DNA of 64,000 bases from Amoebidium appalachense (Eukaryota > Protista > Ichthyosporea). The notes beneath the pieces are model-generated. The model was not told the DNA's origin. It saw only the letters and a program-made list of their open reading frames with translations, and ran no database searches. Location: assembly GCA_963693365.1 (NCBI GenBank), contig CAVNZM010000002.1, positions 15,843,615 through 15,907,614 of the forward strand. The letters run 5' to 3'. The position numbers were made by a program, and so were the translations under genes. Below are positions 8,701-11,700 of the stretch, in pieces; position 1 is the stretch's first letter, and every line of letters begins with the position of its first letter.

Positions 8701-11700
8701 CTGATTTGTTTGTCCTTGGTGTTTTCTTTCCTTTCCCCCCCCCCCCCCCCCATTTTTTCTTGGTGTGTATACATGTGAGAAAGAGGGCTTGTCCCTTCTC
8801 CGGGCCTTGCCTTCAGTTGGCCTTAAGAAGACGGAGGAGAAAACAAACAGCACCCTGAAACCTGCTCCCTCTCCACAGTGTTGTGCAGGAAGACTACCCC
8901 AAGCTGGAGGAAAAGTGCAAGGCGGTGGTGAAGGAGGCGCAGAAGTTCGAGCGGTTGGAGATGACAAAGGATGACCTCAAGAAGATGTTCAACGTACGTG
9001 TGTGTGTGTGTGTGTGTGTGTGTGTGTGTGTGTGTGTGTGTGTGTGTGTGTGTGTGTGTGTGTGTTTGTGTGCGTGTGTGCGCGTGCATTGTGTGTGTGT
9101 GTGTGTGTGTGTGTGTGTGTGTGTGTGTGTGTGTGTGTGTGTCGGTGTATGCACGTGTGGTGGTGGCGGTGGCGGTGCACGTGGGGAGGAAGGAGGGGGA
9201 GGGGGGAGGGGGGTCTGAGTTTGTGTAATGTGTACATTTCTTCTCGAGTGCTAGGCTCACACACACACACACACTCACTCACTCATCACTCACTCACTCA
9301 CTCACTCACTCACTCGCTCGCTCACTCACACACACTCTCACTCTCACACTCACACTCACACTACACTCACACTCACACACACTGGCTCATATAAACACTT
9401 ACGCACGTTTAAACACATTCACACAGGCACATACACACAGAAACACACACACACACTCACACACACACACACACACACTCACTCACTCACTCACACTCAC
9501 ACTCACACTCACACTGGCTCACATAAACACTCAAGCACGTTTAAACACAGTCACACAGGCACATACACACAGAAACACACACACGCGCGTGCGGGCGCGC
9601 GCACACACACACACACACAAGCACAGACAGACAGACACAGCCCCCCCCCCCCCCCCCCCCACACACACACACAACTCCCCCCCCCCCCCCCCCCCCCTCC
9701 CCCCCCCCCCCCCACACATAAACACACACAGTGATGCATTTGTGTTACTAGAAATCCACCATTCTCACTGCCACCCCGCCGGCCACAGTACAACCAGTTC
9801 AAGATCCGCATTATTGACGAGAGGATCGACACCCCCACCACCACGGTCTACCGCTGTGGCACCCTGATCGATCTTTGCAGAGGGCCCCATGTGAGGAACA
9901 CGGGCAAGATCAAGGCCATGTCTGTGCTCAAGGTGTGTGTGTGTGTGTGTGTGTGTGTGTGTGTGTGTGTGTGTGTGTGTGTGTCTCTCTCTCTCTCTCT
10001 CTCTCTGTGTGTGTGTGTCTGTGTGTGTGTGTGTGTGTGTGTGTGTGTGTGTGTGTGTGTGTGTGTGTGTGTGTGTGCGCGCGCGCGCCTGGGAAGGGGA
10101 GGGGGAGAAGAGGGGGAAGCAACAAGAGATGCTTTGGCATGGTGCATGGTGATGGCCGGGGGGGGGGGGGGGGGGGGGGGGGGGATCGGGGATAGCTGCT
10201 TGTCGTTCCCATCTCGGTCCTCACCGATACGAACTGCTCCTAGCATAGCCACTCACCCCCCCCCCCCCCCCCCGGATGGGCTCTGCTTATGACGCCTACT
10301 GTACGCATGGCTGATGTTGCATACTTGAATGTTTGCCTTTGCATGTGTCCTTCGTGTGTGCGTACTTCGTACGCTGTTCCGCATTCAAACCCCCCCAGTC
10401 TTCTTTCAGAGGTGTCCTTTCAGGACAGACCACTGTGTGGAGACCGCTTTACTTCCATGCAACCGGGCATGGTTGCTCTGTGTCGTGCATCTGTAAGCAC
10501 ATACGCTTTTCCCGCTGCACTGCATTAGTTTGCACACACATATTCACCGTTTTGCTCACCTTGCTTGCATAAGCAACCCTGCTCGTCTGTGATCAAGACG
10601 GGTTGACCCTCCCAAGTTCAGTTGATGCTGCTGTCTGAGTTGGAGAGTCGTATATACGCAGGCTAAGGGGTCGAAACTCAGACGCAATTGATGACTTGGG
10701 CCCTCCCTGAGGATGGGCTCTGCTGATGACGCATACTGTGCGCATGGCTGATGTTGCATACTTGAATGTTTGCCTTTGCATGTGTCCTTCGTGTATGCGT
10801 ACTTCGTACCGTGTTCCGCATTCAAACCCCCCCCCCCCCCCCCCCCCCTCCCCCCTCCCCCCCTTTCTTGCACAGAACTCGTCCACGTACTGGGAGGGCA
10901 ATGCCAATGCCGAGACGCTTCAGCGCGTGTACGGCATTTCATTCCCCGACAACAAACTGATGAAGGAGTGGAAGACCCTGCAGGAGGAGGCAGCTAAGAG
11001 GGACCACAGGAAGATTGGCAAAGTATGCACGTGCACACACACACACACACACACACACACGAAAACACAAACACGCACGCAAACATATCTTCGAACACAC
11101 ACATGCACGCGTGCCCGCCTTTGCACACGCGCACACGCAAAAACGCAAACACACACAGACATATCTTCGAACACACACACACATTTGCACGCGTGTACAC
11201 AAGCACACACATATACACACATGTTCATGCAAACAAAGATGCACACGCACAGACACACACGCACACACAGATACACACAACAAGCACACATTCCCAAAGA
11301 CACACACATTTGCGCAAATCATCACACCAGGGTTTTATGCATGCACTCATTTTTGCATGCATAAATGCACTAAACCAAGATCATTCATATGGAAAATCGT
11401 GGGTTGCGGCTGAGACACGAAACAATTATAGCCCTTGTTATAGCCCTTTCCTTGCTTTACTCTTTGGCACACATCCAGTCAACACCATGCATGCTCATCC
11501 ACATGCAGTGATCAATGTGAATACCATGCTACCACTGCATAAGCGCACACACAGAGAGACACACACATTGGGACATTGCATGCCCATGCTGATATAACTG
11601 CACCAGTGGATCCTGCTTGGCAATGACCCACACATTACATCCGTAAGCTCGGGATACAACCGTGCCCTCCCCCGCCCCCCTCCCCCCCCCCCCTCAACCG

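What the first reader, a model, noticed from the sequence alone, without database searches (positions are those of the whole stretch)
10570..10725. ~155-nt structured RNA conserved by compensatory changes across diverged repeat subfamilies
Seen, comparing copies 2, 6 and 5. Closing helix aagca.ccc/ggg...tgct, taagca.ccc/ggg...tgctta, aaca.ccc/ggg...tgtt. Hairpin cgtct/agacg is invariant. Middle helix cccaagttca/tgacttggg, cccatgttca/tgacgtggg, ggcctattgct/ggcataggcc. Inner helix gtctgagtt/aactcagac, cagtatctgagtt/aactcgggtactg, aagtatgggtt/aacccatactt. An apical hairpin varies in sequence. The motifs ACCCTGCTCGTCT, GTTGG, GTCGAAAC and TGA.GATGGGCTCTG stay fixed while helices covary, which indicates selection on RNA structure. 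I do not recognise it as a known RNA family.
Basis: seen in the sequence. Interest (0 to 1): 0.85.

Follow-up and report, generated by a model that had tools for sequence, protein, structure and literature searches.

The report
Rewired hammerhead ribozyme in tandem retroelement
A short, high-copy mobile repeat in this probably protist genome carries every part of a hammerhead ribozyme in a scrambled, kinked order that likely cuts the element's own RNA, and the same order can be read in animal Naiad retrotransposons that were reported to lack such a ribozyme.

Summary
The helices and fixed motifs are real. The fixed motifs are the hammerhead core boxes (CUGAnGA, GAAA, GUH) in a rearranged order. 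A predicted kink-turn joins the middle and inner helices. The strand order is that of the validated type-SGC hammerheads (Eckert 2023), but the backbone is also opened between A9 and G10.1, which that paper assumed cannot happen.

The RNA lies in a 429-nt unit that is 5'-truncated, flanked by poly-C and joined head-to-tail, like a non-autonomous Penelope-like element. By eye, 10 Naiad consensus records in Craig 2021's supplement show the same layout, although Naiads were reported to lack canonical hammerheads. Helix lengths do not close in one molecule, so cleavage likely needs two copies. Cleavage, expression and an autonomous partner are not shown.

This scan reached a similar reading on three other genomes, at least two described as animal, seen after my own analysis. 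Verdict: new variant of a known kind.

The parts
10398..10826 (+). Family A unit (429 nt), ending TTCAAA before a C run
   Evidence: joint 10830 back to 10398 in 4 of 4 runs laid; same junction in the window
10570..10726 (+). Ribozyme domain, closed by helix P1 (10570-10575 with 10721-10726; 10577-10579 with 10715-10717)
   Evidence: 10725 reads T in over 99% of depth in all 4 runs, completing P1
10584..10600 (+). Invariant 5-bp hairpin P2 between P1 and the stem II strand
10605..10610 (+). 5' strand of hammerhead stem II (G10.1 = 10605), displaced upstream
   Evidence: pairs with 10667-10672; covaries across families
10611..10620 (+). Middle helix 5' strand, equivalent to the stem I-II joining helix 'I' of type-SGC ribozymes; pairs 10692-10700
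   Evidence: comparison
10621..10626 (+). Predicted kink-turn, bulged strand (3-nt bulge, then GA); partner GA at 10690-10691
   Evidence: present in 3 of 3 full copies; consensus recalled
10627..10640 (+). Extended stem III 5' strand, ending at U16.1 = 10640; pairs 10676-10688
10641..10642 (+). Predicted cleavage site, after H17 = U (GUU)
   Evidence: analogy with the hammerhead core; copy at 31965 starts one base past it
10642..10645 (+). Stem I strand after the cut; pairs 10703-10706
   Evidence: 4 bp in A with an A-U where family B has G-C
10646..10666 (+). Variable apical hairpin and purine-rich linker from stem I to stem II
   Evidence: read from the sequence
10667..10676 (+). Stem II 3' strand and core box G12-A13-A14-A15.1 (10673-10676)
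10703..10714 (+). Stem I partner strand, core box CUGAGGA (10707-10713) and extra U (10714)
   Evidence: extra U also in PLE hammerheads of Craig File S2
10274..10393 (+). 3' fragment of a preceding family A unit (partial tandem)
16080..16265 (+). Family B copy, 5'-truncated at the kink-turn bulge
31965..32164 (+). Family A copy that starts one base after the predicted cleavage site
33990..34366 (+). Family C copy, probably decayed (U at core position 3; upstream stem II strand partly deleted); 5' limit uncertain
54920..55785 (-). Family B copy with full ribozyme domain (55003-55159); 5' limit uncertain
55801..55915 (-). Fourth subfamily (D), 3' fragment that keeps the CUGAGGA box
9933..10875 (+). 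Host GT-AG intron holding copy A in sense orientation; the gene looks like threonyl-tRNA synthetase (label recalled from motifs)
   Evidence: exon translations; Pfam gave no hit on the 49-aa exon

Best explanation
The 155-nt RNA holds a complete hammerhead core in a rearranged four-strand order and likely cuts itself after 10641, processing tandem transcripts of what is probably a non-autonomous Penelope-like (Naiad/Chlamys-type) element into unit-length RNAs. Shown in sequence: the order is stem II 5' strand, then [stem III-UH-stem I], then [stem II-GAAA-stem III], then [stem I-CUGAnGA]. The middle helix ties the free sides of stems I and II together, a GA/GA motif with a 3-nt bulge hinges it to a 14-pair stem III, and P1 closes the break between A9 and G10.1. 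Inferred: the hinge folds as a kink-turn, and a partner reverse transcriptase copies the RNA into poly-C tracts, giving fixed 3' ends, 5' truncations and partial tandems. Least certain (about 55%): all helices can form at once only if two copies swap strands, so cutting would need tandem repeats or a second molecule, and lone intronic copies would be largely inert.
For: An any-order core scanner finds 4 hits in 64 kb on both strands, all element copies and all in the order site-GAAA-CUGAnGA; 1 of 3000 shuffles passes per copy. With both core boxes held fixed and the rest shuffled, 35 of 5000 (A) and 2 of 5000 (B) pass the four-strand test, and 0 of 120 chance loci chosen to carry the boxes pass. 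Stem II covaries: GACCCU/GGGGUC in A and GACCUA/UAGGUC in B. Loose ends show both sides changed again in other B copies and a matching upstream strand in family C. Family C reads C at core position 3 in about 98% of depth in X1 and X2. Arm lengths are conserved: 14-15 nt from hinge to core and 15 nt from hinge to C3 in A, B and C. The same strand order cleaves in vitro in type-SGC ribozymes. GUU sites and the extra U occur in PLE hammerheads. By eye, the same four-strand layout is at the 3' end of 10 Naiad records with unrelated helix sequences. Head-to-tail joints are seen in 4 of 4 runs. C runs flank the copies, and Chlamys PLEs target (C)n. One of 4 copies truncated inside the domain starts one base past the predicted cut (chance roughly 7%, by hand). 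Monomer closure fails by 10-35 A in a simple helix model.
Against: No cleavage or expression data. Stem I is only 3-4 bp, and H17 = U is a slower triplet (recalled). Only three full copies could be aligned and no genome is held. The window's C copy is broken, and in X19 only 1.5% of depth shows C at 34250. No reverse transcriptase was found: 0 Pfam hits in six flanking frames, and the rest of the window was not scanned for one. No Chlamys passage that I saw fitted the layout. The geometry is a rod-and-angle estimate with recalled constants, not a 3D model. A weaker stem II partner also lies just downstream of A9.
Confidence: 0.8

Rival explanations
1. Same ribozyme, but it cleaves as a monomer: the outer part of stem III or of the middle helix opens so the kinked arm can reach stems I and II. 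This differs from the best explanation only in the two-copy step.
For: Type-SGC ribozymes pose the same geometric puzzle and still cleaved during transcription. Some Naiad examples have arm lengths that could close (octopus records, Naiad_Bfor, by eye).
Against: The whole 14-pair stem III and 9-pair middle helix covary here. The gap of 42-61 A exceeds the 26-32 A that the linkers can bridge. Acropora Naiads keep similar long arms.
Confidence: 0.35
2. Plain type-SGC hammerhead: stem II is formed by the GGCUC just after A9-U-G, and the upstream match is incidental.
For: The downstream strand can form 4-6 pairs with a 2-nt insertion in 4 of 4 scanned copies, within the 1-2 nt that Eckert allows.
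Against: The downstream strand is invariant while its supposed partner varies; the upstream strand changes with that partner. In the octopus, Acropora and other Naiad records only the upstream strand pairs over 4-6 bases (by eye). Using it would also break the invariant CCC/GGG helix.
Confidence: 0.07
3. The fold is kept as a binding and priming signal for the partner reverse transcriptase or a kink-turn protein, and no longer cuts.
For: Invariant bases outside the core (10576-10588, 10714-10723) point to a protein or tertiary contact. Minimal PLE hammerheads cleave poorly in vitro. Stem I is short.
Against: The catalytic positions are kept in families whose helices have diverged, and in distant Naiads.
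Confidence: 0.1
4. A snoRNA-like or SECIS-like kink-turn RNA carried along by a repeat.
For: Tandem GA motif; two chance-level box C/D hits; some Naiads carry SECIS elements.
Against: No Rfam hit at gathering score; no AA at the SECIS apical position; no ORF; does not explain stems I and II or the core boxes.
Confidence: 0.03

Closest known systems
Type-SGC hammerhead ribozymes (HRIMA-1 and variants), Eckert et al. 2023, PMC10085705
   Same: Order site, GAAA, CUGAnGA; stems I and II as pseudoknots; a helix joining the free sides of stems I and II.
   Different: Here the stem II strand is cut off from CUGAnGA and moved upstream, the joining helix is linked on both strands to stem III through a kink-turn motif, and a hairpin sits in the stem I to stem II link. 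It is in a eukaryotic genome; their SGC RNAs came from metatranscriptomes and none from genomes of known organisms.
Naiad/Chlamys Penelope-like elements, Craig et al. 2021, PMC8557442
   Same: 5' truncation, partial tandems, (C)n targets (Chlamys), short non-autonomous units. The 3' ends of 10 Naiad records fit the same four-strand layout by eye.
   Different: That paper found no canonical hammerhead in Naiads and only flagged 'HHR_core' and 'HHR_half_core'. Naiads were reported from animals only. No RT or endonuclease is shown for this element.
Non-LTR retrozymes of animals (PMC7229834; bioRxiv 10.64898/2026.07.22.740005)
   Same: 150-450 bp tandem units, each with a hammerhead, no ORF, linked to PLEs.
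   Different: Those carry type I (circularly permuted) hammerheads; circular RNA is shown there and untested here.
Minimal dimeric PLE hammerheads (Cervera and de la Pena 2014, PMC4209133)
   Same: PLE ribozymes proposed to work as dimers between tandem copies.
   Different: They dimerise through a short or missing helix III; here helix III is long and the predicted swap is in stems I and II.

Membership tests
Hammerhead ribozyme | Core box C3-U4-G5-A6-N7-G8-A9 | tested here: met
   A, both B copies, 31965 and D; the window's C copy has U3, but about 98% of family depth in X1 and X2 reads C
Hammerhead ribozyme | G12-A13-A14-A15.1, U16.1 and H17 (not G) in register with stem III | tested here: met
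   GAAAC and GUU with 9-13 contiguous pairs in 4 of 4 copies long enough to test
Hammerhead ribozyme | Stems I and II abutting the core, R10.1-Y11.1 | tested here: met
   stem I 3-4 bp, stem II 6 bp with G10.1-C11.1 in A and B
Hammerhead ribozyme | Site-specific self-cleavage after H17 | not testable with these tools
   no raw RNA reads offered
Hammerhead types I, II, III | Pseudoknot-free, circularly permuted order | tested here: not met
   all 4 hits have the order site-GAAA-CUGAnGA
Type-SGC hammerhead | Block order S, G, C | tested here: met
Type-SGC hammerhead | Helix joining the free sides of stems I and II | tested here: met
   middle helix 10611-10620 with 10692-10700
Type-SGC hammerhead | Block C uninterrupted (stem II strand follows CUGAnGA within 1-2 nt) | tested here: not met
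   the covarying stem II strand is upstream; a weaker downstream partner exists
Kink-turn | 3-nt bulge followed by tandem G-A and A-G pairs between two helices | tested here: met
   3 of 3 full copies; consensus recalled
Kink-turn | Kinked fold and binding of an L7Ae-family protein | not testable with these tools
   needs experiment
Naiad/Chlamys PLE | [quoted passage not shown] | tested here: met
Naiad/Chlamys PLE | Insertion into microsatellite, (C)n in Chlamys | tested here: met
   C runs follow 7 of 7 copies and precede 4 of 7 directly; C-rich or junction sequence precedes the rest
Naiad/Chlamys PLE | RT with N-terminal GIY-YIG endonuclease in the element or an autonomous partner | tested here: inconclusive
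   0 Pfam hits in six flanking frames; no genome held
Non-LTR retrozyme | Type I hammerhead in each tandem unit | tested here: not met
Non-LTR retrozyme | Expressed as linear and circular unit-length RNA | not testable with these tools
   contigs only
SECIS | Apical AA about 11-13 nt from the GA core, in a selenoprotein 3' UTR | tested here: not met
   that position reads UUGG in A, B and C; no Rfam hit; feature recalled

The most novel reading that the evidence does not exclude
A fourth opening of the non-circular hammerhead, split inside the catalytic core between A9 and G10.1 and hinged by a kink-turn, is the general ribozyme of Naiad-type Penelope elements, reaches outside animals into a unicellular relative, and works only when two copies swap strands, so that it senses tandem transcripts.
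Probability: 0.4. Interest if true: 0.88.

Novelty: new variant of a known kind. Interest (0 to 1): 0.78.

Why it matters
It would add a natural hammerhead wiring that the published six-permutation scheme excludes, and place a non-circular permutation in eukaryotic genomes at high copy. It would turn the reported absence of ribozymes from Naiad elements into a search artefact, testable with one in vitro transcription. If two copies are needed, it offers a reason why a genome can carry many sense-strand intronic copies without cutting its pre-mRNAs. A kink-turn inside a small ribozyme would also be a natural site for protein control of cleavage.

Tried and rejected
Rfam: nothing at gathering score, chance hits only. 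Whole genome: none held, so no large alignment or R-scape-type test. Pattern scans: 4 viral and 116 metagenome loci, the latter from 28 of 64 parts of the collection; none passed the four-strand test and the 40 best of 120 showed no matching stem III or 5' block, so all were treated as chance. Sequencing runs: no RNA holder listed; X19 and X20 are only guessed to be RNA, and contigs cannot show ends; X15 laid nothing. A covariance model found the three full copies, 16041, 31882, and weak matches at 10244 and 55874; four other weak matches (E 0.09-0.9) were not followed. First idea, stem II from the downstream GGCUC, was demoted after the covariation and the Naiad examples. HDV-like, VS, hairpin-ribozyme, U3 and SECIS readings were considered from memory and dropped because their pairings or boxes did not hold across A, B and C. 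Four sub-helix rows had my coordinates off (inner middle helix of A and C, outer stem III of A, copy 16080) and are not used. Lunse et al. 2017 on dimeric PLE hammerheads is not held; only its title was seen.

Full report
Observation. The stretch 10570-10726 is one of seven copies of a repeat in the window. Three are long enough to hold the whole structure: A (10568-10730, +), B (55003-55159, -) and C (34117-34273, +). On these three rows 94.3% of 105 cells pair and 7 of 36 pairs change on both sides, against 31-46% for slid partners; the 36 pairs include my stems I and II, and three related rows cannot give a probability. The single strand is not unusually stable (z -1.15). Rfam has no match at gathering score.

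Setting. Copy A lies in sense orientation in a GT-AG intron (9933-10875) of a gene whose exons read like threonyl-tRNA synthetase (label recalled). A phosphoglycerate mutase exon elsewhere in the window has Sphaeroforma arctica (75%) and a CFRG-numbered protein (77%; recalled as Creolimax) among its best hits, with oomycetes and others at 65-72%. The host is therefore probably an ichthyosporean protist; this rests on one gene fragment. All seven copies end in or just before a C run, and the short ones begin after C runs. Contigs of 4 of 4 runs join 10830 back to 10398 (20, 6, 2 and 1 contigs), and the window has the same junction. So family A is a 429-nt unit that occurs head-to-tail. Run X1 laid 10,334 contigs on it, which points to very many copies but is not a copy number.

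What the fixed motifs are. GTCGAAAC holds G12-A13-A14-A15.1, TGA.GA with its preceding C is C3-A9, and GTT is G16.2-U16.1-H17. The bases after the GUU pair with those before CUGAnGA (stem I): GGAG/CUCC in A, GGG/CCC in B. A scanner that allows any strand order finds 4 hits on both strands of 64 kb, all copies of the element and all in the order site, GAAA, CUGAnGA; 1 of 3000 dinucleotide shuffles passes for each of A, B and C. Stem II pairs the bases before GAAA with a strand upstream of the middle helix: 6 pairs in A and 6 in B, with a change on both sides. Loose-end consensus lines show both sides changed again in other B copies and a 5-base match in family C. With both core boxes held in place and the rest shuffled, 35 of 5000 (A) and 2 of 5000 (B) pass the four-strand test; 0 of 120 chance loci carrying the boxes pass. 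The window's C copy has U at position 3 and has lost part of the upstream strand, but about 98% of family depth in X1 and X2 reads C there (1.5% in X19), so this copy is probably decayed.

The hinge. Between the middle helix and stem III each full copy has a 3-nt bulge followed by GA opposite GA, the kink-turn consensus as I recall it. Distances are conserved: 14-15 nt from hinge to core on both strands and 15 nt from hinge to C3.

Comparison with print. Eckert et al. 2023 (PMC10085705; parts 1, 3, 4, 5 of 8 and passages read, supplements not seen) named this order type SGC and showed cleavage at 0.007-0.19 per minute. They found a helix joining the free sides of stems I and II, assumed the block holding CUGAnGA cannot be interrupted, and found no such RNA in genomes of known organisms. 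Here the middle helix is that joining helix, but the block is broken after A9-U and closed by P1. Craig et al. 2021 (PMC8557442; passages, section 9, supplement part 1 and supplement search passages seen) report that Naiad and most Chlamys PLEs lack canonical hammerheads, flag 8 Naiads as 'HHR_half_core', and describe (C)n targeting and short non-autonomous tandem units in Chlamys. In passages of their File S5 I read the same four-strand layout by eye in 10 records. They are Naiad_Bfor (stem I only 2 bp), Amil, Aacu (one mismatch each in stems I and II), Anas, Naiad-2_Movir, Obim, Ovul, and three I could not name; names follow record order. Of 54 Naiad families listed I saw only what motif searches returned. 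One more passage fitted except for a weak stem II, two fitted type CSG with the block intact, five did not fit, and no Chlamys passage fitted. Their File S2 lists PLE hammerheads with the extra U after A9 and with U at the cleavage site. Searches that found no description of this wiring; subscription journals and bioRxiv supplements are largely outside the library. Other papers seen: PMC4209133 (passages), PMC7229834 (part 2 of 6), PMC6155905 (part 2 of 5), bioRxiv 10.64898/2026.07.22.740005 (part 1 of 5 and passages), PMC11167929 (abstract).

How it likely works. Read-through transcription of tandem units gives an RNA with two or more domains. Cutting after GUU would release unit-length RNA, which may be circularised as shown for animal retrozymes. 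A partner RT would copy it into C tracts, giving the fixed 3' end and variable 5' ends. One of four copies truncated inside the domain begins one base after the predicted cut; this is suggestive only. Stems II and III stack coaxially, so the far end of stem II is about 24-25 layers from the hinge while the middle helix is 8-9 pairs with a 0-1 nt link. The gap of 42-61 A exceeds the 26-32 A that can be bridged (constants recalled). All helices can form together if two molecules exchange strands, which parallels the dimeric minimal hammerheads of other PLEs. I put this step at about 55%; partial opening in a monomer is the main alternative.

Against. There is no cleavage or expression evidence, stem I is short, and no autonomous partner was found (one search covered only six flanking frames). 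No relatives turned up in viral or metagenome contigs. The invariant bases at 10576-10588 and 10714-10723 are only partly explained by P1 and P2.

Verdict. A real, selected structure; a hammerhead by every sequence feature tested; not a member of types I-III, and not strictly type SGC. New variant of a known kind, interest 0.78. Three earlier notes of this scan reach a similar reading on other genomes. I saw them after this analysis and count them as no support.

Noticed in passing
window 55241-55262 (-) and 34013-34034 (+): Families B and C share a small hairpin about 95-105 nt upstream of the ribozyme domain; family A lacks it.
   Followed up: no
window 55170-55785 (-): Long non-repetitive stretch 5' of copy B; may be the body of a longer family. 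Three frames of 55170-55594 gave no Pfam hit.
   Followed up: partly
window 16080: This copy begins at the last base of the predicted kink-turn bulge, a possible stop point of reverse transcription.
   Followed up: no
window 38713-39618, 47564-48421, 53698-54617: Three-member dispersed paralog family; ORFs at 53706-54624 look zinc-finger plus MATH/TRAF-like by eye.
   Followed up: no
window 42177-42690, 49631-50082, 50710-51201: A second dispersed family at 66-83% identity.
   Followed up: no
window 62873-63967 (-): Open frame of 364 aa with many C2H2-like zinc-finger repeats.
   Followed up: no
window 56293-58400 (-): Phosphoglycerate mutase gene whose close homologs include both ichthyosporeans and stramenopiles.
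   Followed up: partly
PMC8557442 File S5, two records near part 13: Two Naiad records fit type-CSG hammerheads by eye, a type known from only two metagenomic sequences in Eckert 2023.
   Followed up: no
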